Positions 2,852 through 49,995 of a DNA stretch of 64,000 nucleotides are shown in pieces (position 1 is the first letter of the stretch; each line of letters opens with the position of its first letter). Source of the DNA: a virus. Taxonomy: Duplodnaviria; Heunggongvirae; Uroviricota; Caudoviricetes. The notes under the pieces were generated by a model, which made no database searches, had not been told where the DNA came from, and saw only the letters and a list, made by a program, of their open reading frames with translations. The stretch lies in IMG/VR virus record IMGVR_UViG_3300033463_000034. One strand, 5' to 3'. A program made the translations under genes and the position numbers.

Positions 2852-4756
2852 ATGGCTGATAATAAATTATATACAAAAGATTCAATTGAGTCATTATCTC
2901 CATTAGAGTTTACTCGTTTAAAACCGGGTGTATATGCTGGTGATACTACATATTCAACTCAATTACTTGTAGAAATAATTTCTAATGCTGTTGATGAATT
3001 TAGATTAGGTCATGGTAATGAAATAGATATTGATATTAATAAAGATATTATATCTGTAAAAGATTATGGTCAAGGTTTTTTAGTAAATGAAAAAAGAGAA
3101 GATGGTAAAACCGTTCTAGAAGCAGCTTTCAGTGTTCTTAATACTTCTGGCAAATATCGTGAAGATGGAACTTATGAAGGAACTTCATTAGGTAGTTTTG
3201 GTATCGGATCAAAAATCACTACTTTTTTATCTCACTGGTTAGAAGTTCAAACTTGGAGAGATAATAAATCTGAATTTATTAGATTTGAAGAAGGTGTATT
3301 TAAAGATAGAGTTGTAAGAGAGGATCCATTAATCCCATCTGGAACTCTTGTAAGATGGCAACCTAGTGAACAATTTTTTACTCATACAACAGTAGAAATT
3401 AATAAAATAAAAGAATTATTTAATACAATAACTTGTTTATGTCCTGGGTTAAAAATGACTTTAACTATTGATGGAGAACAAACTATTTATTATTCAGAAA
3501 ATGGTATTAATGATTTAGTTGATGAAGCTGTTAAAAATAAAGAAATTATTGTTAATAGATTTAATATGAAATATGAAGAAGGAAAAGAAAAATTAGATAT
3601 GGTATTAACTTATACATCTAATTATTCACTTACTCTTGTTCCTTATGTTAATACAGGTTTAACAGAGAAGGGTCCTCATATCACTCAAGTTAAAACTATT
3701 ATAACAAGAGAATTTAATAAATTTTTTAAAGATAAAAAATGGTTAAAAGATAAAGAAGAAAATTTAACTGGAGATGATATACAAGAGGGTATGTATATAG
3801 TATTTAATATGACAGCTCCTAATGTTGCATATGATGCTCAAGTTAAATCAACAGTAACTAAATTAGATATGAGTAATTTTAGTGCGGCAATTGCTGAACA
3901 ATTACAATATTGGCTAATTAATAATGAAAAAGAAATAAAAGTAATCTTTGATAAAGCTGCAGCCGCACGTAAAGCAAGAGAAGCAGCTAAATCTGCACGA
4001 GAAAGAGTTAGAGAAAACAATAAGAAAAAAGAAAAAGCTCTTAAATTTGATAGTAAATTAGCAGATTGTTATTCAAAAGATAGAAGTAAATGTGAAATAT
4101 ATATCACAGAGGGTGATTCAGCTTCAGGAAATTTAAAATCAGCTAGAAATAATGAATTCCAAGCAGTAATGCCTGTTCGTGGTAAAATATTAAACACACA
4201 AAAAGCAAGTTTAGATAAGATACAAAAGAATGCAGAAATTATGACAATGATAGATGCATTTGGATTATATATTGATACTAAAACTATGCAAGTGACTTAT
4301 GATAAAAATAGTCTTCGATATGGTAAAATTATAATTGAATCAGATGCCGATGTAGATGGCGCTCATATTAAGAATTTATTCTATACATTTATATGGAACT
4401 TCTGTCCTCAACTAATTGAAGATGGTTATATTTATGCTGGTGTTCCACCATTATATAAAGTAACAATAGGAAAAGAATATAAATATATTAAAAATGATGA
4501 AGAATTAGAAGAATTTAAAAAAACAGTTGGCGATAAAAAAATAACTGTTAATCGTATGAAAGGTCTTGGTGAAATGTCGGTTGATGAAACTGAAGAAACA
4601 CTAACTGATCCTAATAACAGAATTATTAAACAAATAACAGTTGAAGATATGGCTGCCGCAGATAAACTATTTAATGATTTAATGGGAACTGCTATTGTTG
4701 TTAGAAAAGATTTTATAAAAGAACATAGTAAGGAGGCTACATACAATGCAGAATAA
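2852..4756 (+). CDS. type II topoisomerase large subunit (GyrB-like ATPase plus Toprim, as in T4 gp39)
   Basis: HATPase motifs NAVDE and GLGSFGIGSK. Toprim motifs EIYITEGDSASG, PVRGKILN and IESDADVDGAHI. Confidence 0.85.
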   Translation: MADNKLYTKDSIESLSPLEFTRLKPGVYAGDTTYSTQLLVEIISNAVDEFRLGHGNEIDIDINKDIISVKDYGQGFLVNEKREDGKTVLEAAFSVLNTSGKYREDGTYEGTSLGSFGIGSKITTFLSHWLEVQTWRDNKSEFIRFEEGVFKDRVVREDPLIPSGTLVRWQPSEQFFTHTTVEINKIKELFNTITCLCPGLKMTLTIDGEQTIYYSENGINDLVDEAVKNKEIIVNRFNMKYEEGKEKLDMVLTYTSNYSLTLVPYVNTGLTEKGPHITQVKTIITREFNKFFKDKKWLKDKEENLTGDDIQEGMYIVFNMTAPNVAYDAQVKSTVTKLDMSNFSAAIAEQLQYWLINNEKEIKVIFDKAAAARKAREAAKSARERVRENNKKKEKALKFDSKLADCYSKDRSKCEIYITEGDSASGNLKSARNNEFQAVMPVRGKILNTQKASLDKIQKNAEIMTMIDAFGLYIDTKTMQVTYDKNSLRYGKIIIESDADVDGAHIKNLFYTFIWNFCPQLIEDGYIYAGVPPLYKVTIGKEYKYIKNDEELEEFKKTVGDKKITVNRMKGLGEMSVDETEETLTDPNNRIIKQITVEDMAAADKLFNDLMGTAIVVRKDFIKEHSKEATYNAE

Positions 4757-7067
4757 TGATATTTTAAATGAGTTAAGTACAAACTTTATTGAATATGCTG
4801 TTGCAGTTAACACAGATCGTGCTATTCCAGATGCGACTTGTGGTTTAAAACCAGTAGCCCGTAGAATATTATGGGGAGCTTTTGAAAAAGGTTATACATT
4901 TAGTAAACCTCATGTTAAATCAGCAAAAATTGTCGGGGATGTAATGGGTACTTATCATCCACATGGAGATTCTTCTATATATGGAGCTCTTGTTAGATTA
5001 TCTCAACCTTGGGTTATGAGATATCCACTTATAGATTGGCATGGATCTAATGGAAATATTGATGGTGATGGTCCAGCCCATATGCGTTATACAGAAGCAA
5101 GATTATCAAAACTTGCGGAAGATGGTATGTTAAAAGGAATTAAAAAAAGAAATGTAGAATTTATTCCTAATTATTCTGAAGATGCAGAAGAACCAATTAC
5201 ATTACCTGCTATATTCCCTAATTTATTATGTAATCCTAACACAGGTATAGGGGTTGCAATGGCTTGTAATTTTGCTCCACATAACTTATGTGAAGTAGCT
5301 ACAGCTATATATGATTATATTGATGGTAAAGAACCAATGTTACCAGGTCCTGATTTTCCAACAGGTGGATTAATTATTAATATGAATGATATTCCATCTA
5401 TTATGAAAACAGGACATGGTAGTGTAAAAGTTAGAGCTAAATATAAAACAGAAGGTCAGAATATAGTATTTTATGAAATACCATATGGAACTTCCACTGA
5501 AGCACTTATTGCGGAAATAGGTGAAGTAGCAGAAAACGACATTCCTGATATAATAAATATTAGAAATGAAAGTAATAAAAAAGGTTTAAGAATAGTTGTA
5601 GAGTGTGCAAAAGGAATTAATCCAGATACAATAGCTAATAAATTATTTACAAAAACTGATTTACAAAGTAGTTTTTCATATAATCAAGTTGCTTTAATAA
5701 ACAAAACTCCAACTGAAGTTAATTTAAAAGATTGTATTAAATTATACTTAGATCATAATATTGAATGTTTAATTAAAGAAACTAAATTTGATTTACAAGC
5801 TGCAGAGGCCCGTCTTGAAGTTGTAGAAGGTTTAATAAAAGCATTAGAAGATATAGATAATATAATTGCATTTATTAAAAAGTCTGAATCAAGTGCTGCC
5901 GCAAAAGATGGTTTAGTTAAAGAATATAAATTCACAGAAGCTCAAGCTAAGTCTATTGTAGCTATGAGATTAGGTAGTTTAGCTAAATTAGAAAAAATTG
6001 AATTAAATGAAGAAAAGGCTCAATTAGAACATGATATAGATGGTTATAAATATTTATTAAATAATAAAGATGCTCAAGTTTCTACTATAAGAACTAGATT
6101 ATCTGATTTAGTTAAGAAGTATGGAGATAAGAGAAGAACTGAATTAGCACAAATTGATATTCCAAAAGAAGATAAAGAAATAATTACTGTTATTCCTGAA
6201 GATGTAGTTGTTATGGTATCTCAAACAGGAGATGTTAAGCGTATTCCTAAATCAAGTTTTAGAACACAAAGAAGAAATGGTAAAGGTATCAAATCTGAAG
6301 ATGATGCAATATTAACTACTATAAAGACTAATACTATTGATAATTTATTAGTATTTACTAACAAAGGAAAAATGTATAAAATATTAGTTGATAAACTTCC
6401 TATTGGAACAAATGTTTCAAAAGGACAAAATTTAGCTAGTTTAGTGAATATGGATGCTGATGAAAAAGTTATAGCGGCATCAAGTTTAGATAGAGATACG
6501 GATGCAGAATATGTAGTGTTTATAACTAAACAAGGTTTATTTAAGAAAACTTTATTAAGTGAATATAAATCAATTAAAAAATCAACAGGTACTCAAGCTA
6601 TTAAATTAAAAGATGGAGATAGTATTGCTAATGTAGTATTTATGAAAGAAGAAGAATTTATGATATTTACTAAATTAGGTATGGCTATCAGATTTACAAC
6701 AAAAGATATTGCAGCAATAGGTAGAGTTACTAGTGGAGTTAAAGGTATTAATTTAATAGATGGCGATGAAGTAATTTGCGGATTCCCTATATTAGATGGT
6801 AAGACTGAAATTGCTATTATTGGTAAAAATGGCTATGGAAAGAAAACTAGTTTAAATGAATTTACTTGCCAAGGTAGAGGCGGAAAAGGATTAAAATTAG
6901 GCGCGGAAATAGCAGGTGCTGCAATGATAGGGGCTGAAGATAATCTTCTATTAATTGGTAAACCAAATAGCATATGTATAGATAGTAGTGAATTACCTTT
7001 ACAAGGTAGAGCTACACTTGGTGTAAAATTAGCACAAAATGAAATTAAAAATGTTGTTATTGTATAA
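4746..7067 (+). CDS. type II topoisomerase subunit A (GyrA/ParC-like, as in T4 gp52)
   Basis: AIPDATCGLKPVARRILW and YHPHGD, with a catalytic Tyr region. Overlaps the upstream subunit by 11 nt. Confidence 0.85.
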   Translation: MQNNDILNELSTNFIEYAVAVNTDRAIPDATCGLKPVARRILWGAFEKGYTFSKPHVKSAKIVGDVMGTYHPHGDSSIYGALVRLSQPWVMRYPLIDWHGSNGNIDGDGPAHMRYTEARLSKLAEDGMLKGIKKRNVEFIPNYSEDAEEPITLPAIFPNLLCNPNTGIGVAMACNFAPHNLCEVATAIYDYIDGKEPMLPGPDFPTGGLIINMNDIPSIMKTGHGSVKVRAKYKTEGQNIVFYEIPYGTSTEALIAEIGEVAENDIPDIINIRNESNKKGLRIVVECAKGINPDTIANKLFTKTDLQSSFSYNQVALINKTPTEVNLKDCIKLYLDHNIECLIKETKFDLQAAEARLEVVEGLIKALEDIDNIIAFIKKSESSAAAKDGLVKEYKFTEAQAKSIVAMRLGSLAKLEKIELNEEKAQLEHDIDGYKYLLNNKDAQVSTIRTRLSDLVKKYGDKRRTELAQIDIPKEDKEIITVIPEDVVVMVSQTGDVKRIPKSSFRTQRRNGKGIKSEDDAILTTIKTNTIDNLLVFTNKGKMYKILVDKLPIGTNVSKGQNLASLVNMDADEKVIAASSLDRDTDAEYVVFITKQGLFKKTLLSEYKSIKKSTGTQAIKLKDGDSIANVVFMKEEEFMIFTKLGMAIRFTTKDIAAIGRVTSGVKGINLIDGDEVICGFPILDGKTEIAIIGKNGYGKKTSLNEFTCQGRGGKGLKLGAEIAGAAMIGAEDNLLLIGKPNSICIDSSELPLQGRATLGVKLAQNEIKNVVIV

Positions 7068-7084
7068 CAACATTTTTTAGTTAT

Positions 7085-7133
7085 GCGGGAGAGCCATTCT
7101 CCTGGATCTATGAGGTATTGACCGGCCGCCGCA
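7085..7133. other. GC-rich intergenic island containing CCGGCCGCCGC
   Basis: gcgggagagccattctcctggatctatgaggtattgaccggccgccgcac stands out in AT-rich DNA. It holds a short hairpin (ggaga/tctcc) and an EagI-like palindrome. Confidence 0.5.
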
Positions 7134-7134
7134 C

Positions 7135-7163
7135 TTGACAATAATAAAAAATTATTATATAAT
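7135..7163 (+). promoter_or_regulatory. consensus promoter TTGACA-17-TATAAT
   Basis: TTGACA at 7135-7140 and TATAAT at 7158-7163, both perfect. Confidence 0.65.
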
Positions 7164-7194
7164 ATATATAATAAATAAAGAAGGAGAGATACAT

Positions 7195-8310
7195 ATGAAT
7201 CCAGATAAATTAGAAGAATATAAAATGCAAGAATTAGTAGATAAATTAAATTATTATACAAAAAAATATGATGAAGGTAAACCTGAAATATCTGATTTTG
7301 AATGGGATTCTATGTATTTTCAACTACAAGATTGGGAAAATAGAACTGGAATATATCTTTCAGATAGTCCTACTCAAAATATTAATTATCAAGTAGTTAA
7401 TAAACTTAATAAAGTAGAACACAATCACCCTATGTTATCTCTTGATAAAACAAAAGATATAACAGTAGCAGATTCATTTTACAATAGTCATAAGTGTATT
7501 GTAATGGCTAAAATGGATGGACTAACTTGTTCACTTCGTTATTTAGATGGTAAACTTGTATCTGCGGAAACTCGCGGAAATGGAATAATAGGTGAAGATA
7601 TACTTCATAATGCTTTACAAGTAAAAAATATTCCTAATAGAATTGATTATTATGAAGAATTAATTGTAGATGGAGAAATTATTTGTACTTATAATGATTT
7701 TAAAGCATTTGAAAATGAATATAAAAATCCTAGAAATTTTGCTTCAGGAAGTATTAGATTATTAGATAGTCAAGAAAGCGCCACTAGAAATCTTACTTTT
7801 GTTGCATGGGATGTTGTAAAAGGATTAGATTTAGAAAATCTATCTGATAAATTAAAATGGTTAGGAGATTTAAATTTTACTGTTGTTCCAAAAGGAAATA
7901 ATTTTTATACATTTCCTGTTCAAATAGAACATATTCAAAATGAATGTAATGCTTTAGGCTATCCAATTGATGGAATTGTAATTAAATATGATAATTGTAA
8001 AGAGTATGAAATTGCAGGTAAAACTGATCATCATTTTAAAGGTGGATTAGCATATAAATTTTATGATGAAGAATATGAAACTACTCTTCTAGATATAGAA
8101 TGGAGTATGGGTAGAACTGGAGTTCTTTCTCCTATTGGAGTTTTTGAGCCTATTGAAATAGATGGTACTACAATTACTAGAGCAAGTTTATCTAATATAT
8201 CAATTATGCATCAAACATTAGGGGAAAAACCTTTTAAAGGACAGAAGATTTGGGTATCAAAACGAAATATGATAATTCCAAAAATTGAAAGAGCGGAAAA
8301 GGAGGAATAA
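7195..8310 (+). CDS. ligA: NAD-dependent DNA ligase, N-terminal half (Ia, adenylation and OB domains)
   Basis: RBS AAGGAGAG upstream. KxDG motif AKMDGLTC. The OB fold ends at IIPKIERAEKEE followed by a stop. Confidence 0.8.
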   Translation: MNPDKLEEYKMQELVDKLNYYTKKYDEGKPEISDFEWDSMYFQLQDWENRTGIYLSDSPTQNINYQVVNKLNKVEHNHPMLSLDKTKDITVADSFYNSHKCIVMAKMDGLTCSLRYLDGKLVSAETRGNGIIGEDILHNALQVKNIPNRIDYYEELIVDGEIICTYNDFKAFENEYKNPRNFASGSIRLLDSQESATRNLTFVAWDVVKGLDLENLSDKLKWLGDLNFTVVPKGNNFYTFPVQIEHIQNECNALGYPIDGIVIKYDNCKEYEIAGKTDHHFKGGLAYKFYDEEYETTLLDIEWSMGRTGVLSPIGVFEPIEIDGTTITRASLSNISIMHQTLGEKPFKGQKIWVSKRNMIIPKIERAEKEE

Positions 8311-8314
8311 TATT

Positions 8315-8782
8315 ATGAATTTAAATATAGAAAAAAGAGAATATGATGAAAATGGCATATTAAAAAATAAACAATGTAATATTTGTTTTAGAATGTTACC
8401 TATTGAACAATATTATTCTAACAAAGCTCAATATGATGGACATAGTAACACATGTAAAGAATGTGAAAATGCTTCTTTATCTGTTAGATTAAAAAATTAC
8501 AAAAGAAATGCTAAAAATAGAAATCTTAATTTTAATTTAACAAAAGAAGAATTTGATAAAATAACTTCCCAACCATGTTATTATTGTGGAGATTTGGGTG
8601 CAATATCTCCTTCTGGATTTAGATATAATGGAATAGATAGAAAAGATTCATCGCAAGGATATAACTTAGATAATATAGTTCCTTGTTGCAAGATTTGTAA
8701 TTTAATGAAATTAGATATTCCAGAAAAAGATTTTTTATATCATATTCAAAAAATATATGAATTTCAGTTATGGGGGGATTAA
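8315..8782 (+). CDS. HNH homing-type endonuclease inserted between the ligase halves
   Basis: RBS AAGGAGG 10 nt upstream. HNH signature CYYCGD...NGIDRKDSSQGYNLDNIVPCCKICN. Confidence 0.75.
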   Translation: MNLNIEKREYDENGILKNKQCNICFRMLPIEQYYSNKAQYDGHSNTCKECENASLSVRLKNYKRNAKNRNLNFNLTKEEFDKITSQPCYYCGDLGAISPSGFRYNGIDRKDSSQGYNLDNIVPCCKICNLMKLDIPEKDFLYHIQKIYEFQLWGD

Positions 8783-8783
8783 A

Positions 8784-9584
8784 ATGAAACAATATTTTGA
8801 AATTCCTGAAATCTGTCCAATATGTGGCGGCAATACTGAAATTAGAAAAGATAATGATAGTGAGATGTTGTATTGTATAAATCCTCACTGCGAAGGAAAA
8901 TTAATAAATCACCTAGACCATTTTTGTGGTAAAAATGGGTTAGATATAAAGGGGCTCTCAACGGCAACTCTCGAGAAACTTATAGACTGGGGTTGGGTTT
9001 CTAATTATATTGATATATATAAATTAGAAAACTACTCAAACGAATGGAAAAACAAAGCTGGTTTTGGAGAAAAGTCAGTAGAGAGGATCTTGAGCGCCCT
9101 TGAACTAAGTAAAAATACTACATTAAATAAAGTTATTGCGGCCGCAGGTATACCTTTAATAGGTCCTGGAGTAGCAAAAATGTTAAGTGAGATTTATCAT
9201 ACTTGGATAGAGTTTCGTAATGAAAAAGATTTTGAATATATAGATGGAATCGGTCCAGAAATGAATAATTCATTATTAAATTTTAATTATACTGAAATTG
9301 AACAAGTTATTCCTTATTTAAATATAGAAAATGATAAAATAGAAAAGAAAAATAAATTAGAAAATTTAACTTTTTGTATTACTGGTAAAGTACATACAGT
9401 AAAAAATAGAGATGAATTAAAAGCAATAATAGAAAATAATGGTGGAAAAGTTGTTGGTTCAATGTCAAGCAAAGTTAATTATTTAATTAATAATGATAAT
9501 ACTTCAACTAGTGCAAAAAATATTGCCGCAAAACAAGCAGGAATTCCAATTATTACAGAGGAAGAATTGCAATTAATGATTTAA
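8784..9584 (+). CDS. ligA: NAD-dependent DNA ligase, C-terminal half (Zn finger, HhH and BRCT)
   Basis: CPICGG...C..C Zn finger at the N-terminus, HhH region GIPLIGPGVAK, BRCT-like end. Own weak RBS GGGGGGA. Confidence 0.75.
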   Translation: MKQYFEIPEICPICGGNTEIRKDNDSEMLYCINPHCEGKLINHLDHFCGKNGLDIKGLSTATLEKLIDWGWVSNYIDIYKLENYSNEWKNKAGFGEKSVERILSALELSKNTTLNKVIAAAGIPLIGPGVAKMLSEIYHTWIEFRNEKDFEYIDGIGPEMNNSLLNFNYTEIEQVIPYLNIENDKIEKKNKLENLTFCITGKVHTVKNRDELKAIIENNGGKVVGSMSSKVNYLINNDNTSTSAKNIAAKQAGIPIITEEELQLMI

Positions 9585-9588
9585 TATT

Positions 9589-9617
9589 TTGATACCTTAA
9601 AAATTTTTATATATAAT
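9589..9617 (+). promoter_or_regulatory. promoter TTGATA-17-TATAAT
   Basis: Hexamers at 9589-9594 and 9612-9617. Confidence 0.5.
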
Positions 9618-9623
9618 ATAGAT

Positions 9624-9821
9624 ATGAAAGATAAAAAAAAGAAGGTTAAAAAAATAGCTCAACAAATCGTATCATTAGAAAATAAATGTCATCAAACTAA
9701 TAATATAGATGAAAGAAATAAATATATGATACAAATTCAAAAATTAATAGAAAATCTTTCATTAACAGAGCTATTACAAATTGATGAATATATAGTTGAA
9801 AATAGTCTTTTGACAAAATAA
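9624..9821 (+). CDS. small hypothetical protein
   Basis: 65 aa basic protein directly downstream of the promoter. No obvious RBS. Confidence 0.35.
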   Translation: MKDKKKKVKKIAQQIVSLENKCHQTNNIDERNKYMIQIQKLIENLSLTELLQIDEYIVENSLLTK

Positions 9822-9889
9822 AAATTTTTAATTATAATATTTATGTAAAAAATAATAAAATAGGTTTAAAGAGAAGGAGAAGAAAAATT

Positions 9890-10159
9890 ATGTTAAAACC
9901 AAATAGTATAACAGTTTACAATTATGTAAAAGAAAATCAAGCAAATAATATTACAGCTGCAGATATCGCTGAAGGAACTGGATTACCAGTAAGAACAATC
10001 AATGGTATCGTTACATCAGCATTCCAAAGAAAAGGTTTAATGGAAAGAATCGAAAAAGAAGTTGAATTAGAAGATGGTTCACACAAAAAAGTAAAATTCA
10101 TTAAATTAACTGCTGAAGGTGAAGCTTTCGATCCAGAAGCAACTGAAGACGCTGAATAA
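9890..10159 (+). CDS. small winged-helix-like DNA-binding protein with acidic tail
   Basis: RBS AGGAGAAG upstream. HTH-like ITAADIAEGTGLPVRTINGIV. Codon usage differs from neighbours (atc, ttc, ggt, cgt). Followed by a terminator. Confidence 0.5.
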   Translation: MLKPNSITVYNYVKENQANNITAADIAEGTGLPVRTINGIVTSAFQRKGLMERIEKEVELEDGSHKKVKFIKLTAEGEAFDPEATEDAE

Positions 10160-10178
10160 TTTTAATTATATAATAAAG

Positions 10179-10212
10179 AAAGCTAAATATTTATTTAGCT
10201 TTTTTATTTTAG
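10179..10212 (+). terminator. intrinsic terminator
   Basis: Stem aaagctaaata/tatttagcttt followed by a T-run. Confidence 0.6.
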
Positions 10213-10218
10213 AAAGGA

Positions 10219-11157
10219 TTGATTAATATAAAAGATTTTATTACAATATTTTTCTTTATTACAACAATAATATTATTTATTATATTATTATGTAAAAAAT
10301 ATAAAATTAATGAAATTAATAAAAATATTGAATTAGAAAATGAAAAATTATTAAAAAATAAAGATAATATTATAAATGAAATAAAAATTTTAAATATAAC
10401 AAAAGAAGAAAAAAATAAAGATTTACAAGAGATAGAAAAAATTACAAATAATATGAATGCGGCCGCTCATAAAGCATTTTCTGAATACTGTGATTCTTTA
10501 GATTCAGAATATAAAATTACTGAACAAGAACATGATGCAGCAATTGATGGATTAAGAACTGCATATGATAATCTTCAAGATATATTAATGATGAAAATTA
10601 AAAATACTCAAAAAGAATTAGATAAAATTTCTGCAACCCGTGCTGCCGCATTAGAAACTCAATTAAAAGAACAAGAAATAAAAAATAAACAATCTTTCTA
10701 TTGTCCGCAAATTCCTGAAGATGAATTAAAAGATGTTAAAGTTTTACATGAAATAGAATATAAATTAAATAATCCAAGAATATTAAGAATGCTTATATGA
10801 CAAACATATTATCAAAAACCTATGAATCAAGTTTGTGCAAATGTATTAGGAGATGCATCCGCAGAAAAATGCGGTATATATAAAATAACAAATCAAAAAA
10901 ACGATTTATTATATATAGGTCAAGCTGTTGATATTGCTACTCGTTGAAAAAATCATGCTAAAGCAGGTTTAGGAATAGATACTCCTGCAAATAATAAATT
11001 ATATAAAGCAATTATAGAAGATGGGCTTGAAAATTTTTCTTTTGAATTATTAGAAGAATGTAATAGAGATCAACTTAATGAAAAAGAAAAATTTTATATA
11101 AAATTATATCAATCTGATCAATTTGGATATAATTCTAATTCAGGTATAAATAAGTAA
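10219..11157 (+). CDS. membrane-anchored coiled-coil protein with C-terminal GIY-YIG nuclease domain (TTG start, 2 in-frame TGA)
   Basis: N-terminal TM FITIFFFITTIILFIILL and a long K/E coiled coil. C-terminal GIYKITNQKNDLLYIGQAVDIATRW(TGA)KNH...E..FYIKLY. Confidence 0.5.
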
Positions 11158-11178
11158 TTTGATAATTACTTATTTTTT
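11150..11178 (+). terminator. intrinsic terminator
   Basis: Stem aagtaatt/aattactt with loop tgat, followed by a T-run. Confidence 0.5.
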
Positions 11179-11222
11179 AAGTATAATAATTATATAAATA
11201 AAATAATAAAAAATAAATAAAT

Positions 11223-11251
11223 TTGACAATTATGAATTTTTTTATTATAAT
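11223..11251 (+). promoter_or_regulatory. consensus promoter TTGACA-17-TATAAT
   Basis: Perfect hexamers 17 nt apart. Confidence 0.65.
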
Positions 11252-11328
11252 ATTTATAGAAATAATGAAATCATAAGATAAATTAAATGAAATGAAGTTA
11301 TTTTAAAAGAAATAGGAGGAAAAATTAA

Positions 11329-12273
11329 ATGAGAAAACCACAAAATACAGAAAAAATTATTGGAAGAATTTATCAACATGATTTAGCTATAAAACAAGTT
11401 CAAAATAAAGATTCAGAGAACTTTGGAAAAGATTTTATAGCTGGAAATATTGAAGTAGCAACTGATGAAGAATGTTTAAATGTTATTAAAGTACATTTTA
11501 CATATGTTACACCAACAAATAAAACTGGAGCAGAAAATAAAACTTATACAGTTTTAAAGAAAATTATTGATGAAAATAAAACTATCACTTCAGTAGGAAA
11601 AGATAGTGCTATGAAAGTAAGAATTGATACTGCAATAGCATTAAATGATTTTTATAATAATAATGATGAATTAGTATCAGCAAAAACTAATGAAGGTGGA
11701 TTTGTTACTATTATAAATGATTTAGGAGAAGAAAAAGAAAGAAATATCTTCTCAGTAGATATGGTTATCACTGGAGTTACTCATGTAGATAAAGATGATG
11801 AAAAGAAAACTGAAGAATATGCATCTGTAAGAGGAGCAATATTTAATTTTAGAAATGATTTATTACCTGTTGAATTTAAAGTAAAAAGTTCTGATGGTAT
11901 TAAATATTTTGAAAATTTAGGTGCATCTAACTCAGAACCTATTTATACAAAAGTATGGGGAAAAATTATATCTGCAACTAGTACAACAACTCAAGAGGTT
12001 GAAAGTGCATTTGGAGAACCTGCAGTAAGAACTTATAGAAATACAAATAAAGAATGGGTTATTACAGGAACAGCAAAAGTTGCTTATGATTTTGGTGATG
12101 AAAATATATTAACAGCTCAAGAATTAACAAAAGCAATGCAAGATAGAGAAGTTTATTTAGCAGATGTTAAAAAAAGAGCTGAAGAATATAAAACAACAAA
12201 AGCTAGCTCTACTCCTGCAGCATCAAGTACAACTACAACAATAACAGGAAAAAAAGCCGATTTTAATTTTTAA
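11329..12273 (+). CDS. putative ssDNA-binding protein (DUF2815-like phage SSB)
   Basis: RBS AGGAGGAA upstream. Sits immediately upstream of a Sak4-like ATPase. Low-complexity tail ends ...ADFNF (aromatic C-terminus). Function is inferred from context. Confidence 0.4.
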   Translation: MRKPQNTEKIIGRIYQHDLAIKQVQNKDSENFGKDFIAGNIEVATDEECLNVIKVHFTYVTPTNKTGAENKTYTVLKKIIDENKTITSVGKDSAMKVRIDTAIALNDFYNNNDELVSAKTNEGGFVTIINDLGEEKERNIFSVDMVITGVTHVDKDDEKKTEEYASVRGAIFNFRNDLLPVEFKVKSSDGIKYFENLGASNSEPIYTKVWGKIISATSTTTQEVESAFGEPAVRTYRNTNKEWVITGTAKVAYDFGDENILTAQELTKAMQDREVYLADVKKRAEEYKTTKASSTPAASSTTTTITGKKADFNF

Positions 12274-12285
12274 TATCGGCTTCTT
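12253..12285 (+). terminator. intrinsic terminator
   Basis: Stem aagccgatttt/atcggctt followed by cttatttt. Confidence 0.45.
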
Positions 12286-12307
12286 ATTTTAAGAAAGGAG
12301 AAAGAAA

Positions 12308-13333
12308 ATGGCTATAGATTTAATGAATTTAGCACCTCATAAAGTTAGTAGAGATTTACGCGGATATAGTGTATTCTTTTATGGAGAACCTAAAAGCGGT
12401 AAAACAACAACTGCCGCACATTTTCCTGAAGCTTTACTTTTAGCTTTTGAAAAGGGATATAATGCTATTCCTGGAATTATGGCTCAACCAATAAATTCAT
12501 GGAGTGAATTTAAACAAACTTTAAGAGAATTAAAAAAACAAGAAGTAAAAGATAAATTCTCAACTATTATTATTGATACAGTTGATATTGCTTATGATTA
12601 TTGTACTAAATATATTTGTGATAATGCAAAAAGATCTGATGGAGGATTTGGAGTAGATTCAATTAGCGATATTGGATATGGAAAAGGTTATGGTATGGTT
12701 AGTCAAGAATTTGATGATAGTCTTCGTAGTATTGTTCAAATGGATTATGGTCTAGTTCTTATTAGTCATGCAACTGATAAAACTTTCAAAAATGAGAGTG
12801 GAGAAGAATATAATCAAATAGTTCCAACATTAGATAAAAGAGGAACTAATATTGTATCTCGTATGGCAGATATTATTGGTTATTCAAGAGTAGTAACTAC
12901 TGATGAAGGAGATAAAACAATGTTATTTATGAGAGGTACAAATAGATATATGGCTGGAAGTAGATTTAAATATACTCCAGATTATATTGAATTCTCATAT
13001 AAAAATCTTACAGATGCTATTGCAAATGCAATAGATATGCAATCTAAAGAAGAAGGAGAACAATATTTTACTGAAGAAAGAAGTAATTTATATGCTCCTA
13101 AAGATAATGAATTGGATTTTGATAAACTAATGGTTGAATTTCAAAATTGTATTAATCGCATGATAGCAAAAGCTGGAGATAAATTTGAATCAGAATATAC
13201 TCCAAGAATTACTCAAATAACTGAAAAATATTTAGGACGCGGTAATAAAGTAAGTCAATGTTCAAGAGAACAAGTTGAAGCATTATCATTAATAGTTGAA
13301 GATTTAAAAGATTTAGAAAAAATTAATATTTAA
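12308..13333 (+). CDS. Sak4-like RecA-family ATPase (AAA_24 recombination protein)
   Basis: Walker A GEPKSGKTT and Walker B IIIDTVD. Overall AAA_24/Sak4-like layout. Confidence 0.65.
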   Translation: MAIDLMNLAPHKVSRDLRGYSVFFYGEPKSGKTTTAAHFPEALLLAFEKGYNAIPGIMAQPINSWSEFKQTLRELKKQEVKDKFSTIIIDTVDIAYDYCTKYICDNAKRSDGGFGVDSISDIGYGKGYGMVSQEFDDSLRSIVQMDYGLVLISHATDKTFKNESGEEYNQIVPTLDKRGTNIVSRMADIIGYSRVVTTDEGDKTMLFMRGTNRYMAGSRFKYTPDYIEFSYKNLTDAIANAIDMQSKEEGEQYFTEERSNLYAPKDNELDFDKLMVEFQNCINRMIAKAGDKFESEYTPRITQITEKYLGRGNKVSQCSREQVEALSLIVEDLKDLEKINI

Positions 13334-20854: not shown

Positions 20855-23800
20855 ATGAATAAAAGATTTGAAGTTCATTCACATACATATTATAGTAATT
20901 TGCGTTTATTGGATTGTATTAATCGTCCTAAAGATTTAATAAATCGTGCGATTGAATTAGGATTATCTGGAATAGCCATTACAGATCATGAATGTATTAG
21001 TTCGCATCCAGAAATAAACTTTTATCAATCTGAAATAGAACAAGAACATCCTGATTTTAAAATAGCACTAGGGAATGAAATATATTTAACTGATGATAGA
21101 GAAAAAGGACAAAGATATTATCACTTTATTTTAATAGCAAAAAATAAAGAAGGTCATAGAGCATTAAGAGAATTATCTTCAAGAGCATGGATGAATAGTT
21201 ATTGGGATAGAGGTCTTGAAAGAGTACCAACATTAAAAAGTGATTTAGAAGAAATATTAAAAAAATATCCTAATAGTTTAATTGGAACAACAGCATGCTT
21301 AGGTGGAGAATTATCAGTTAATACATTAAATTTAATTAGAAGTGAAACAACAGGAGATGAAAATGGTGCGGTAACTGCACATAATAATATAGTAAATTTT
21401 TTATTATGGTGTAAAGAAGTATTTGGTAAAGACAATTTTTATATAGAATGTGCGCCAGGTGCTAGCCGCGATCAAGTGTTAGTTAATAAAAGATTTCCTG
21501 CTATTGCAAAAGCATTTGGATTAAAAATGGTAATAGGTTCAGATGCTCATTATCTTAAAAAAGAAGATAGATATGTTCATAAAGCATATCTTAATTCTAA
21601 AGGTGGAGAGCGTGAAGTAGATGAATTTTATGAATATGCATATCTACAAGATAATGAAGAAATAAAAAATAATTTATATGCATCTCAATTTAGTAATGAA
21701 TTTATAGAAGAAATGTTTAATAATAGTTATGAAATATATGAGAAAATAGAAAAATTTAGTTTGGCTCATGCACAAACAATTCCAAAAGTAGAAGTAGAAG
21801 ATTATCCAAAAATTAAAGTTGGAGAACTAGAAAAACAAGAATTTCCTATTTTATCTAGTATGTTAGAATCAGAAGATAAAATAGAAAGATATTGGGTTAA
21901 TCAATGCTTTAATAAATTAAAAGAAATTAATTTATATAATAATGAATATTGTCATAGATTAGAAGAAGAAGCTGATATAAAAAGAACAATTAGTGAAAAA
22001 TTAGGAACTAATATGTTTGCATATCCAGTAACATTACAACATTATGTTGATTTATTCTGGGAATGTGGTAGTATAGTTGGAGCAGGAAGAGGTTCAAGTT
22101 GTTCTGGTTTAAATCATTATCTTTTAGGTATAACTCAATTAGATCCTATTAAATGGAGTCTTCCTTTCTGGAGATATTTAAACAAAGAGCGTGTTGAATT
22201 AGGAGATATAGATTTAGATTTATGTCCAAGTAAACGTCCTAAAATTTTAAATGAAATAAAAAAAGAAAGAGGACAAAAATTTAATAAAGATATAGATGAA
22301 TTGAGTAGAAAAAATTTAGGTTGTACTTTAATAGCAACATTTGGAACAGAAGGAACAAGATCTACAATTTTAACTGCTTGCCGCGGATATAGAAGTGAAG
22401 ATTTTCCAGATGGTATTGATGTTGATACAGCTCAATATTTATCTTCATTAATTCCTAGTGAGCGTGGATTTTTATGACCACTATCTGATGTTATTAATGG
22501 AAATGAAGATAAAGAAAGAAAACCTATAAAAACTTTTATAAATGAAGTTAATCAATTTCCTGGATTATTAGATATAATGCTAGGAATAGAAGGTTTAGTA
22601 AATAAAAGAAGTAGTCATGCTTCAGGAGTTATATTATTTGATGAAGATCCATATGAGTTCGGTTCATTTATGAGAACTCCAAAAGGAGAAGTTATAACAG
22701 CATATGATCTTCATATGTGTGAAGCATGTGGTATGACAAAATATGACTTTTTAGTAACAGAAGTTCAAGATAAATTGGCGGAAGCAATTAGAATGTTACA
22801 AGATTATGGAGAAATTGAAAGTGATTTAACATTAAGAGAAGTATATGATAAATATTTTCATCCAAATGTTTTACCTATTGAAGAGGATAAATATTGGAAA
22901 GTTATTCAAGAAAATAATATATTAAATTTATTTCAATTTGATTCAGAAGTTGGTAGTCAAGCAGCTAAAAAAATTAAGCCAACAAATATGATGGAATTAG
23001 CAGATGCAAATGGTTTAATGAGATTAATGACTGCGGAAAAAGGTCAAGAATCTCCAATGGATAAATATATTAGATTTAAGAATAATATTAATTTATGGTA
23101 TAAAGAAATGGATGAATATGGTTTAACAAAAGAAGAACAAAAAGTATTAGAGCCATATTTTAAAAGTTCACATGGTGTTCCACCATCACAAGAACAATTA
23201 ATGAGAATGTTAATGGATGAAAATATTTGTAATTTTAGCTTAAAAGATGCAAACGCCGCGAGAAAAATTGTAGGTAAAAAACAAATGAGTAAGATCCCTG
23301 GATTAAGACAACAAGTATTAGATCAAGCTAAAAGTCCATGTTTAGGTAATTATGTTTGGAAATGTGGTATCGGTCCACAAATGGGTTATTCATTTAGTAT
23401 TATTCACGCTCTTGCATATAGTTTTATAGGTTTTCAAACTGCCTATATAGCAACAAAGTGGAATCCTATATATTGGAATACAGCATGTTTAATAGTAAAT
23501 AGCGGAAGTCTTGAAGAAGAAAGTGATTTTGAAGAAGATGAAGATGGATTTGTTGTAGAGAAAAAAGAAAAGACAACAGATTATAGTAAAATAGCAAAAG
23601 CATTAAGTGATATTATAAATAAAGGAATAAAAGTTAGTTTAGTAGATATAAATAAATCAGATTATAGTTTTGAACCAGATGTTGATAATAATGAAATATT
23701 ATTTGGAATGAAAGCATTAAGTAATGTAGGAGGTCCAATAATAGAACAAATTAAAGCTGGTCGTCCATATGCAGGAATTGCAGATTTTATGGTTAAATGT

Positions 23801-24808
23801 CCATTAAATAAAAGTGCAATGATAAGTTTAATTAAAGCGGGGGCTTTTGATAAAATAGATAATAAAAATGCGAAAGAAGCAAATGTTGAACCTAGATTAT
23901 GGGTTATGACATATTATTTATCTAAAGTGTGTGATGCAAAAAAAAGATTAACTTTACAAAATTTTAATGGTTTATTACAACATAATTTAATTCCTGAAGA
24001 ATTAGATTTACAAAAAAGAGTATTTAATTTTAATAAATATTTAAAAGCAAATCAAAAAGTAGGAAAATATTATGTATTTAATCAACCTTGTGAAGATTTT
24101 TATAATAAATATTTTGATTTAGATCAGTTAGAAGTAATAAATGGTATTACATGTATTCTTCAAACAAGATGGGATAAAATATATCAAGATATAATGGGAA
24201 CAGCTAGAGATTATTTACAAGTACATCAAGATGAAATGTTAAAGAAATTTAATACAATGTTATTTAAAGAATGTTGGGATAAATATGCACAAGGAAATAT
24301 TTCTGCGTGGGAAATGGAATCTTTATGTTTTTATTATCATGAACATGAATTAGCTCATATTAATAATTTAAAATATGGATTAACAAATTTCTTTGATTTA
24401 TCTCCATCTCCAGAAATTGATACAATGTTTAAAAGAAATGGTAAAGAAATTCCTATATTTAAAACTTTTAAAATAGTTGGAACAGTTATTAATAAAAATG
24501 ATAATAAAAATAGTATAACTTTATTAACAACAAATGGTATTGTTATTGTTAAATTTACAAAAGAATATTTTGCAATGTTTAATAGACAATTAAGTGAAAT
24601 GGGAGAAGATGGAACTAAACATGTTATTGAAAAAGGTTGGTTTACAAGAGGAACTAAAGTAATGATAACAGGTTTTAGAAGAGATGATACTTTTGTAGCA
24701 AAAACTTATACACGAACAGCAACTCATCAATTATATAAAATAGAAAAAGTATTTGAAAATGGAGATATGGAATTAACTCATGAAAGAGGAAATAATAATG
24801 AAGAATAG
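20855..24808 (+). CDS. DNA polymerase III alpha-family replicative polymerase (PHP domain plus pol core plus OB), about 1317 aa; in-frame TGA at 22478
   Basis: RBS AGAGGAGGA upstream. PHP motif HSHTYYS...ITDHE. The two track ORFs are in the same frame and joined by TGA. Confidence 0.75.
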
Positions 24809-36799: not shown

Positions 36800-36838
36800 A
36801 ATAGCACAGATATAAAAATCTGTGCTTTTTTATTTTTA
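36800..36838. terminator. bidirectional terminator between convergent modules
   Basis: Stem agcacagat/atctgtgct flanked by T-runs on both strands. The minus-strand gene stops at 36836. Confidence 0.6.
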
Positions 36839-49400: not shown

Positions 49401-49995
49401 TTAAATAAAAAGTATATGTAGTATTAGGAGTTAAACTACTAAATACATTACTACTTTGTCATGAACTATTATCTCTTGAATATTCAACAGTAGGTGTTGT
49501 AGTATTTAAATTTAAATATAATTGTGGATTTCCACTATCTGTTGTTTTGTTAAATATATAATTATTTGTTGAACCTCCTGTATTATGAATCTGTAATCAA
49601 AATGCTTGATTTCCTGATGGAACTATACCAACATTAAAATTGTCAGTAACATATTTATTTTGAGCATTATCTTTTCATTCCCAATAAGCTCCATTAGATG
49701 TATTTAAGAAAAAGTGAACATTTTGATTAATAACTGTAGAACCAAATCCCATATTAACTCAACAGTTATTATATCTACTATAACTATTTGATGAACCACG
49801 TCTTCCACGCATATTATTTATAAAAAATGAACCTGTAGTAGGTGCGGCAATAGAACTTGATAAAGTTATTTGAGTTTGTGCATTAGAAGCAGTAAAGGAA
49901 GTTACTGAAGGTGCATTTGGTACAAAAGATCAATAAGTCATTAATCTCATCCCAGTACTATTAGTACAAACAATATTAGTAAAAATTGCTGCCAT
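46414..49995 (-). CDS. large tail protein with fibronectin type III-like repeat and C-terminal lectin-like domain, about 1190 aa; very Trp(TGA)-rich
   Basis: RBS AGGAAG upstream of ATG (complement 49993-49995). Stop hand-indexed at 46414-46416. FN3-like segment TISATAHTYNTITVSFSA...YTIYF. Confidence 0.5.

What the first reader, a model, noticed from the sequence alone, without database searches (positions are those of the whole stretch)
7195..9584. NAD-dependent DNA ligase is split exactly at the OB/Zn-finger boundary by an HNH endonuclease gene
The N-terminal ORF ends right after the OB domain (IIPKIERAEKEE then stop). A 468-nt HNH ORF follows. A second ORF then resumes with the LigA Zn finger (EICPICGG) through HhH and BRCT. 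This looks like a homing-endonuclease-mediated gene split or a group I intron carrying an HNH ORF. Either a two-piece ligase or a spliced transcript is implied.
Basis: partly seen in the sequence, partly recalled or inferred. Interest (0 to 1): 0.6.

Follow-up and report, generated by a model that had tools for sequence, protein, structure and literature searches.

The report
Phage DNA ligase split by endonuclease gene
A selfish nuclease gene has landed in the flexible linker of a phage's NAD-dependent DNA ligase gene and cut it into two separately translated halves; this kind of event is already known, and it produces the same two-subunit layout as the phage T5 ligase.

Summary
ligA-N (7195-8310; domains Ia, adenylation, OB), a 155-aa nuclease ORF (8315-8782) and ligA-C (8784-9584; Zn finger, HhH, BRCT) lie head to tail in three different frames. 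Each has its own Shine-Dalgarno sequence and ATG, and each ends in TAA.

It is not an intron. Only 4 and 1 non-coding nucleotides flank the ORF, Rfam finds nothing, and the RNA is no more structured than shuffles. It is not an intein either.

The inserted ORF is a PacI-type HNH nuclease, in which a tyrosine replaces the catalytic histidine.

A syntenic relative with 92% protein identity carries an intact 641-aa LigA. Against it, synonymous divergence jumps from about 0.06 to about 0.5 inside 8128-8919 only. That marks an imported cassette with co-converted flanks, the signature of homing.

About 30% of the 120 closest homologues end in this same linker. In relatives the gap holds PacI-like HNH, Vsr-like or GIY-YIG endonuclease genes.

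Phage T5 ligA/ligB break at the same position, and a T5-like pair has been solved as a complex (PDB 9HU3).

Verdict: a free-standing homing endonuclease has produced a two-piece ligase, a new member of a known kind. Assembly of the two pieces and nuclease activity are inferred, not shown.

The parts
7135..7163 (+). Consensus sigma-70-type promoter-like site (TTGACA-17-TATAAT) upstream of ligA-N. It is the probable start of one ligN-HNH-ligC transcript.
   Evidence: 12/12 match. No equally good site and no terminator-like site lie inside 7195-9584. This is a pattern match only.
7195..8310 (+). [quoted passage not shown] 371 aa, TAA stop.
   Evidence: Aligns to residues 1-369 of the intact 641-aa homologue P0001. 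SD AAGGAG at 7181-7186.
8128..8919 (.). Imported cassette: the endonuclease gene plus about 183 nt of left flank and 136 nt of right flank, all diverged from the otherwise near-identical intact allele (a co-conversion tract).
   Evidence: Against L002, pS is 0.52 and 0.51 inside the flanks and 0.058 and 0.077 outside. Dense differences are bounded by 8128 and 8919 (sliding identity).
8300..8305 (+). Shine-Dalgarno AGGAGG for the endonuclease ORF. It lies in the last codons (K-E-E) of ligA-N, 9 nt before ATG 8315.
   Evidence: Read directly from the sequence.
8315..8782 (+). Free-standing PacI-type HNH (beta-beta-alpha-metal) endonuclease gene, 155 aa. Presumed homing endonuclease.
   Evidence: PHROG 1035 2.6e-24. 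Profile match to PacI 2.5e-6 with the motif CxYCG...GIDR.DS..GY...N...C..CN..K aligned. AF2 model pLDDT 86. Foldseek to PacI 3ldy_A E 3.7e-7, probability 1.0. Invariant residues C88, C91, D108, R109, Y116, N120, C124/125, C128, N129, K132.
8772..8777 (+). G-rich Shine-Dalgarno (GGGGGG) for ligA-C. It lies inside the last codons of the endonuclease ORF, 6 nt before ATG 8784, which suggests translational coupling.
   Evidence: Read directly from the sequence. The same tight 3' coupling (gap of 0-2 nt, or a 23-nt overlap) is seen in all seven split loci.
8784..9584 (+). ligA-C: the C-terminal piece of the ligase (Cys4 zinc finger, HhH, BRCT). 266 aa, TAA stop.
   Evidence: Aligns to 1dgs LigA residues 402-654 and to 9hu3_B 'DNA ligase subunit B' residues 3-235.

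Best explanation
A free-standing homing endonuclease gene sits in the short linker between the OB fold and the zinc finger of a phage NAD-dependent ligase gene. The nuclease is a PacI-type HNH enzyme.

The element arrived as a cassette by double-strand-break repair or recombination from a diverged donor allele. It brought about 180 nt of left flank and about 140 nt of right flank. It also brought the new gene ends: a stop codon for ligA-N that overlaps the nuclease's ribosome-binding site, and a ribosome-binding site plus ATG for ligA-C.

The three ORFs are probably transcribed together from the promoter-like site at 7135 and translated separately. There is no RNA splicing and no protein splicing.

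LigN (Ia, adenylation, OB) and LigC (Zn, HhH, BRCT) are then expected to associate non-covalently on nicked DNA and act as a two-subunit ligase. T5-type LigA/LigB, which break at the same position, do this.

Shown: the anatomy, the intact sister allele, the imported patch, the recurrence of the split, and the nuclease fold. Inferred: cleavage of the endonuclease-less allele, co-transcription, and assembly and activity of the two ligase pieces.
For: Anatomy:
- Three frames, own SD and ATG for each ORF, TAA stops, and gaps of 4 nt and 1 nt.
- The pieces tile the LigA model at 2-384 and 394-663 of 664.

Presence and absence among relatives:
- The best homologue, P0001, is 92% identical, an intact 641-aa protein, and lies in a syntenic 129-kb contig.
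- 36 of the 120 closest homologues end within 0-10 residues of the RAEK motif in the same linker.
- NJ plus Fitch parsimony needs at least 15 intact/split changes.

Import of the cassette:
- Synonymous divergence from the intact allele is 0.52 and 0.51 in the flanks and 0.058 and 0.077 elsewhere, with sharp edges at 8128 and 8919.

Other elements at the same site:
- Relatives carry a long PacI-like HNH (L004, L013), a Vsr-like nuclease with repeat modules (L009, L010, L011) or a GIY-YIG gene (L012).
- L009 and L012 carry unrelated endonuclease genes but share an identical downstream junction.

Nuclease identity:
- PacI-like. In PacI a tyrosine replaces the catalytic histidine (PMC5714182).

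Function retained:
- dN/dS is 0.2-0.4 for both pieces among split lineages.
- The KxDG motif and the Cys4 zinc finger are kept.

Precedent:
- T5 ligA (323 aa) and ligB (259 aa) break at the same position.
- Homologues of both are solved together in PDB 9HU3/9I5I.
- The T5-like phage SP3 has a GIY-YIG ORF between ligA and ligB.
- Aeh1 nrdA-a/mobE/nrdA-b is a proven functional case of the same kind (PMC3045599).
Against: - No experiment shows that this nuclease cuts the intact allele or that the two ligase pieces associate.
- The pieces carry no long added tails like those needed by the Aeh1 NrdA halves.
- The Pfam HNH score is below threshold, and the canonical histidine is absent (the motif is GIDR), so activity rests on the PacI analogy.
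- dS is near saturation in this genome (about 27% GC), so the dN/dS values are rough, and much of that divergence may predate the splits.
- The parsimony count is inflated by recombination.
- The diverged patch proves recombination with a diverged allele, not that this nuclease triggered it.
Confidence: 0.85

Rival explanations
1. A group I or group II intron carrying an HNH ORF interrupts ligA. Splicing restores a single ligase mRNA and a single polypeptide.
For: HNH ORFs do occur in phage group I introns (own knowledge, e.g. I-HmuI, I-TevIII). Removing 8308-8783 (476 nt, which is 2 mod 3) would fuse the two pieces in frame (arithmetic).
Against: The ORF fills 468 of the 473 nt between the pieces, so there is no room for a P3-P9 core. 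A permissive Rfam scan (E up to 10) of 6500-10500 finds no intron family. The minimum free energy of 8296-8800 has z = -0.83, and 21 of 100 shuffles fold as well. Each piece has its own SD and ATG. Relatives hold unrelated ORFs at the same place with the same tight coupling. No reverse-transcriptase domain is present.
Confidence: 0.03
2. The insertion simply killed the phage ligase. The two pieces are decaying remnants and the phage relies on the host LigA.
For: Many phages lack a ligase of their own (own knowledge). Nothing here directly shows activity.
Against: Both ORFs are full length with the catalytic motifs intact. dN/dS is 0.2-0.4 among split lineages, the same as split versus intact. 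About 30% of the clade keeps both pieces open, in at least 8 distinct tail variants. At least 26 of the best 150 cluster representatives at 50% identity are stand-alone C pieces that start at the zinc finger. The T5-type two-subunit ligase is conserved across hundreds of genomes and has been solved as a complex.
Confidence: 0.08
3. The nuclease is domesticated. It is a functional partner of the ligase (for example a nick-and-seal module) rather than a selfish element.
For: It is tightly translationally coupled to ligC. T5-like phages carry site-specific nicks and many HNH genes (annotation).
Against: The closest relative lacks it altogether. Three unrelated nuclease families are interchangeable at the site. 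The flanks show import from a diverged allele. T5 itself has nothing between ligA and ligB.
Confidence: 0.04
4. Assembly chimera or sequencing artefact.
For: The source is a metagenome assembly.
Against: The exact N piece lies on 3 contigs. The identical ligN-HNH-ligC stretch is on a contig from another sample (L003). A 98%-identical nuclease comes from a separate data source (P0121). Homologous split loci are found in many samples.
Confidence: 0.01

Closest known systems
Phage T5 (Demerecviridae) two-subunit NAD-dependent DNA ligase, LigA (T5.116) and LigB (T5.117). Homologues are solved together in PDB 9HU3/9I5I.
   Same: The domain partition is the same: adenylation plus OB in one gene, Zn-HhH-BRCT in the next. 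T5 LigA ends 6 residues after the aligned IIP.I motif, and LigB starts M.IEIPTQCPSCG, which matches the window's MKQYFEIPEICPICG. Adjacent co-oriented genes. One T5-like phage (SP3) even has a GIY-YIG ORF in the gap.
   Different: Only 31% and 26% identical. The window's nearest relatives are intact LigAs at 92%, so this split arose independently and recently. T5 has a 202-nt gap with annotated promoters and no endonuclease gene. T5 LigA is shorter at the N-terminus (323 aa against 371).
Aeromonas phage Aeh1 nrdA-a / mobE / nrdA-b, the 'genes in pieces' ribonucleotide reductase (PMC3045599).
   Same: [quoted passage not shown] The endonuclease gene abuts or overlaps the downstream piece. No RNA or protein splicing is involved.
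   Different: The host gene is different. Aeh1 splits an active site within a domain and needs novel tails for assembly. Here the break is in an inter-domain linker and the new tails are only 2-6 residues. Function is proven for Aeh1 and only inferred here.
'Fractured genes': split inteins with a free-standing GIY-YIG or Vsr-like endonuclease gene between the halves. One phage DNA ligase locus is among them (PMC2677866).
   Same: A phage replication gene is broken in two with an endonuclease gene in the gap. Vsr-like and GIY-YIG endonucleases also occupy the ligase gap in this clade.
   Different: There are no intein halves here. LigN ends at the OB fold and LigC starts 7 residues before the zinc finger, so no trans-splicing can rejoin them.
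PacI restriction endonuclease (PDB 3LDY/3M7K), His-Me finger group 20 (PMC5714182).
   Same: It matches over almost the whole length of PacI (residues 3-120 of 142) in the profile alignment. Two Cys-rich zinc motifs surround a beta-beta-alpha-metal site. The motif G(I/V)DR.DS..GY..N....C..CN..K is shared. The catalytic histidine is absent and the tyrosine is conserved.
   Different: 25% identity. PacI is a bacterial restriction enzyme, whereas this is a phage gene in a homing-endonuclease context. Its target sequence is unknown.
Group I intron-encoded HNH endonucleases of phages (I-HmuI, I-TevIII; own knowledge).
   Same: An HNH-type nuclease ORF interrupts a phage DNA-metabolism gene.
   Different: There is no intron RNA around the ORF.

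Membership tests
NAD-dependent DNA ligase LigA | Domain Ia plus an adenylation domain with the KxDG lysine | tested here: met
   Pfam DNA_ligase_aden 9e-44. Nlig-Ia is on record for the product. KMDG aligns to KVDG of 1v9p.
NAD-dependent DNA ligase LigA | OB fold, Cys4 zinc finger, HhH and BRCT in canonical order | tested here: met
   OB and BRCT pass Pfam's cut-offs; the Zn-finger and HhH matches fall just below theirs. The two pieces tile NF005932 at 2-384 and 394-663 of 664, though neither piece alone reaches that model's cut-off. PDB alignments.
NAD-dependent DNA ligase LigA | Single polypeptide of about 640-670 aa | tested here: not met
   Two ORFs of 371 and 266 aa in different frames, separated by a 468-nt ORF.
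T5-type two-subunit LigA/LigB | Two adjacent genes with the break between the OB fold and the zinc finger | tested here: met
T5-type two-subunit LigA/LigB | Common descent of the split with the Demerecviridae ligA/ligB genes | tested here: not met
   31% and 26% identity to T5, whereas intact LigAs are 65-92% identical. The origin is independent.
T5-type two-subunit LigA/LigB | The subunits form a complex that seals nicks | not testable with these tools
   Only the precedent of PDB 9HU3/9I5I, which holds both chains.
Free-standing homing endonuclease gene | Nuclease ORF with its own start, stop and RBS, not in frame with the host gene and not inside an intron or intein | tested here: met
Free-standing homing endonuclease gene | Sporadic presence and absence among close relatives at one site | tested here: met
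   Intact allele at 92% identity. 36 of 120 homologues are split. At least 15 state changes.
Free-standing homing endonuclease gene | Co-conversion of flanking markers | tested here: met
   pS about 0.5 in the flanks against about 0.06 outside, bounded at 8128 and 8919.
Free-standing homing endonuclease gene | Site-specific cleavage of the endonuclease-less allele | not testable with these tools
   Needs an enzyme assay on the L002-type junction.
HNH / His-Me finger nuclease, PacI group | Beta-beta-alpha-metal fold with flanking Cys4 zinc sites | tested here: met
   AF2 model pLDDT 86. Foldseek to 3ldy_A E 3.7e-7, and next to the Gme HNH 4h9d.
HNH / His-Me finger nuclease, PacI group | PacI motif with tyrosine in place of the general-base histidine | tested here: met
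   GIDR.DS..GY..N aligns to PacI GVDRSDSFEGYSPQN. D108, R109, Y116 and N120 are invariant in 12 homologues. The role of the tyrosine is taken from PMC5714182.
HNH / His-Me finger nuclease, PacI group | Pfam PF01844 gathering score | tested here: not met
   16.0 bits against 21.4. This is expected for the histidine-less group.
Group I / group II intron | Conserved catalytic RNA core flanking or enclosing the ORF | tested here: not met
   No Rfam hit at E up to 10. 5 non-coding nt in all. Fold z = -0.83.
Intein / split intein (fractured gene) | In-frame Hint domain, or N- and C-intein fragments on the two pieces | tested here: not met
   The pieces align end to end with the intact LigA and have no extra residues. 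The ORF is in another frame.

The most novel reading that the evidence does not exclude
The OB-to-zinc-finger linker of phage LigA is a convergent landing pad that at least three unrelated homing-endonuclease families (PacI-like HNH, Vsr-like, GIY-YIG) invade and swap in and out of. Once made, the split persists after the endonuclease gene is lost. On this reading the long-known two-subunit ligase of T5-like phages is a fossil of such an invasion. This uncultured clade, where intact and split alleles coexist at 92% identity, would then show the process under way.
Probability: 0.45. Interest if true: 0.5.

Novelty: new member of a known kind. Interest (0 to 1): 0.35.

Why it matters
- It gives a dated, natural before-and-after pair: an intact allele and a split allele that are about 98-100% identical in DNA outside the imported cassette. 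This pair can be used to ask how an essential multi-domain enzyme tolerates fragmentation by a selfish element.
- It offers a plausible origin for the T5-type LigA/LigB architecture.
- It marks the OB/Zn linker as a permissive site for engineering split ligases.
- It adds phage homing-type members to the small, histidine-less PacI branch of HNH nucleases.
- For annotation, the two pieces should be named as ligase subunits, not as pseudogenes. This genome also has to be translated with TGA read as Trp.

Tried and rejected
- **Intron:** the permissive Rfam scan found only a chance miRNA hit, and the fold z-score was unremarkable.
- **Intein or split intein:** rejected by the end-to-end alignment with P0001.
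- **blastn against phage records:** only phage c-st, at 68% identity over 210 nt.
- **IMG/VR scan with the N piece:** only 4 loci, all intact.
- **L003 as independent evidence of mobility:** rejected. It is 100% identical to the window from 7716 rightwards for more than 4.5 kb, so it is a mosaic with a breakpoint inside ligN, not a separate insertion.
- **L001:** it turned out not to be the window's own contig. It is 96% identical and its gyrB is frameshifted, whereas the window's is intact.
- **Literature:** searches for an explicit report of a ligase gene split by an endonuclease found none in the library, and no paper was found for PDB 9HU3.
- **T5 itself:** it has no endonuclease gene between ligA and ligB.
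- **PHROG label 'endonuclease VII':** judged imprecise. The fold and motif are PacI-like.
- **First structure job:** It was rerun without that row.
- **Table 11 translation of relatives' inserted ORFs:** failed because they hold in-frame TGA. That failure led to the recoding observation.
Full report
**Observation**

- ligA-N runs from ATG 7195 to TAA 8310. It is 371 aa and ends IIPKIERAEKEE.
- A 468-nt ORF runs from ATG 8315 to TAA 8782 and encodes 155 aa.
- ligA-C runs from ATG 8784 to TAA 9584. It is 266 aa and begins MKQYFEIPEICPICGG.

The ORFs are in three different frames, with 4 nt and 1 nt between them. Each has its own Shine-Dalgarno sequence:
- AAGGAG at 7181-7186 for ligA-N.
- AGGAGG at 8300-8305 for the middle ORF, inside the K-E-E codons that end ligA-N.
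- GGGGGG at 8772-8777 for ligA-C, inside the last codons of the middle ORF.

A 12/12 consensus promoter-like site lies at 7135-7163. No terminator-like site lies inside the locus. That fits one transcript with coupled translation, but this is inference.

**The ligase pieces**

Pfam finds the adenylation domain and the OB fold in the first piece, both above its cut-offs. In the second it finds BRCT above its cut-off. The Zn-finger and HhH matches fall just below theirs (23.8 against 25.8 bits, and 22.1 against 27). The two pieces tile the NCBIfam LigA model at positions 2-384 and 394-663 of 664. That tiling and the alignment to solved LigA structures carry the Zn-finger and HhH assignment. The KxDG adenylation lysine and the four zinc-finger cysteines are in place. 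Nothing is missing except the short inter-domain linker.

**Not an intron, not an intein**

The ORF occupies 468 of the 473 nt between the pieces, which leaves no room for a ribozyme core. A permissive Rfam scan of 6500-10500 returned no intron family. The RNA of 8296-8800 folds no better than shuffles (z = -0.83). Removing 8308-8783 would, by arithmetic, fuse the pieces in frame. That is a 1-in-3 coincidence and nothing else supports splicing.

The alignment with an intact homologue leaves no surplus residues that could be intein halves. The 'fractured gene' mechanism of PMC2677866 therefore does not apply.

**The inserted ORF**

Pfam HNH is below threshold. PHROG families labelled endonuclease VII and HNH match strongly. 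A profile of 12 homologues matches the restriction enzyme PacI over residues 3-120 of its 142 (2.5e-6). An AF2 model (pLDDT 86) has PacI as its top Foldseek hit (E 3.7e-7, probability 1.0).

The invariant motif is CxYCG...GIDR.DS..GY...N...CC..CN..K. It lacks the usual general-base histidine. This is the hallmark of the PacI group, where a tyrosine takes that role (PMC5714182). The aligned tyrosine, Y116, is invariant. The ORF is therefore a PacI-type HNH nuclease. Its activity and its target are not shown.

**Relatives: the decisive evidence**

The best homologue of ligA-N in 5.8 billion proteins is P0001. It is 92% identical, an intact 641-aa LigA, and lies in a syntenic 129-kb contig with the same neighbours: gyrB, gyrA, two small ORFs, a GIY-YIG-domain gene, YorF, an AAA protein and DnaB.

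DNA identity between the two loci is 97-100% for kilobases on both sides. It collapses to 57-85% next to the insert. Measured codon by codon:

| Region | Synonymous divergence (pS) |
|---|---|
| ligN codons 1-299 | 0.058 |
| ligN codons 300-371 | 0.52 |
| ligC codons 1-50 | 0.51 |
| ligC codons 51-266 | 0.077 |

Dense differences are bounded sharply at 8128 and 8919. High synonymous divergence rules out local adaptation of the new protein ends. The nuclease gene came in together with about 183 nt and about 136 nt of flank from a diverged allele. This is the co-conversion signature of homing.

**A hotspot, not a one-off**

Of the 120 closest homologues, 36 end within 0-10 residues after the RAEK motif in this same linker, with at least eight distinct tail variants. 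On an NJ tree of the first 300 residues, at least 15 intact/split changes are needed. This count is rough and inflated by recombination.

Seven split loci were read. The gap holds one of four element types:

| Locus | Element in the gap |
|---|---|
| window, L003 | 155-aa PacI-like nuclease |
| L004, L013 | ~236-aa version of the same nuclease with an extra N-terminal module |
| L009, L010, L011 | repeat modules plus a Vsr-like 'homing endonuclease' domain (phrog_9084/7140) |
| L012 | GIY-YIG plus NUMOD-like gene |

In every case the 3' end of the inserted gene is coupled to the ligC start, by a gap of 0-2 nt or a 23-nt overlap. L009 and L012 carry unrelated nucleases but share an identical downstream junction. 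This suggests that elements are swapped within an already split gene.

Among the best 150 cluster representatives at 50% identity for ligC, at least 26 are stand-alone proteins of about 260-307 aa that begin at the zinc finger.

**Are the pieces still a ligase?**

dN/dS is 0.2-0.4 for both pieces among split lineages, the same as for split versus intact. dS is close to saturation, so this is only supportive.

The stronger argument is precedent. T5 ligA (323 aa) and ligB (259 aa) break at the same position to within a few residues. They are conserved in hundreds of Demerecviridae genomes. Homologues of both are solved together in PDB 9HU3/9I5I, deposited as 'DNA ligase (NAD+)' and 'DNA ligase subunit B'.

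T5 has no endonuclease gene in its 202-nt gap. The T5-like Salmonella phage SP3 has a 213-aa GIY-YIG ORF there, mis-annotated as ligase subunit A. Vibrio relatives have one to three ORFs in the gap. The Aeh1 nrdA-a/mobE/nrdA-b case shows experimentally that such a fragmented enzyme can be fully active (PMC3045599).

**Comparison and novelty**

The locus works like Aeh1's split nrdA and ends up with the architecture of T5 LigA/LigB. It is not a descendant of the T5 split: identity to T5 is 31% and 26%, whereas intact LigAs are 65-92% identical. I found no paper describing an endonuclease-split LigA in the searchable library. All the ingredients are known, however, and similar arrangements already sit unremarked in deposited genomes.

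What is new here:
- Intact and split alleles coexist at about 98-100% DNA identity outside the cassette.
- The co-conversion tract can be measured.
- Three nuclease families use one linker.
- The nuclease is of the PacI type.

I rate it a new member of a known kind, with interest 0.35.

**Caveat on genetic code**

This genome reads TGA as a sense codon. The evidence is that coding capacity in long ORFs rises sharply under table 4, and that TGA sits at Trp positions of homologues. The ligase pieces and the nuclease have no in-frame TGA and all three end in TAA. The split is therefore real under codes 11, 4 and 15.

Noticed in passing
whole window, e.g. 36836-39688(-), 46414-49995(-), 61104-63887(-), 20855-24808(+): The genome reads TGA as a sense codon (Trp-like, code 4). 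ORFs of at least 100 aa hold 13,109 aa under table 11 but 21,249 aa under table 4. Probable late genes carry 8-23 in-frame TGA and almost no TGG. The early replication genes (gyrB, gyrA, the ligase pieces, the nuclease) carry none and use TGG. No tRNA gene lies in the window. The ORF listing uses table 11 and so fragments much of the window.
   Followed up: partly
window 10219-11157 (+): A conserved 312-aa gene with an N-terminal hydrophobic segment, a coiled-coil-like middle and a C-terminal GIY-YIG domain. It contains two in-frame TGA at Trp-like positions, so table 11 shows it as 193 aa plus fragments. It is present in all relatives read, so it is probably a resident gene and not a mobile endonuclease.
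   Followed up: partly
L010:5183-5914, L013:3443-4156: The endonuclease genes inserted in the ligase of these relatives contain 3 and 6 in-frame TGA at positions where homologues have Trp. The mobile elements therefore share the recoded genetic code of their phage hosts.
   Followed up: partly
L004:663-3388; L004:12701-13128; L011:8360-9025: Other genes in pieces occur in relatives. In L004, gyrB is split into 502 aa and 132 aa by a 176-aa GIY-YIG ORF, and a LAGLIDADG ORF lies further downstream. In L011, thyX (Thy1) is in two pieces of 120 and 97 aa. The clade is rich in homing-endonuclease activity.
   Followed up: no
L003 versus window 6000-12400: The contig from a sister sample is 100% identical to the window from 7716 rightwards but only about 60-88% identical to its left. 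This points to a recombination breakpoint (or an assembly join) inside ligA-N, roughly 400 nt upstream of the imported cassette.
   Followed up: partly
L016:1265-1906 (Salmonella phage SP3, MG387042): A 213-aa GIY-YIG ORF lies between ligA and ligB of a T5-like phage. [quoted passage not shown]
   Followed up: yes
L009:6077-6110 and L012:5770-5803: Two unrelated endonuclease genes (Vsr-like and GIY-YIG) both end ...GGAGGAATAG and are followed by the identical ligC start AAATGGAAAAAATATATTTACAT. This suggests that one element replaced the other within an already split gene.
   Followed up: no
window 7135-7163, 9589-9617, 9810-9838 (+): Perfect or near-perfect TTGACA-17-TATAAT sites precede ligA-N and the two small ORFs downstream of ligA-C. 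They may be early promoters read by the host sigma-70.
   Followed up: no
L001:1723-3562: A 96%-identical sister contig has gyrB in two overlapping ORFs (564 and 61 aa) because of a 1-nt indel. The window (2852-4756, 634 aa) and L002 have it intact. The cause is a sequencing error or a real frameshift.
   Followed up: partly
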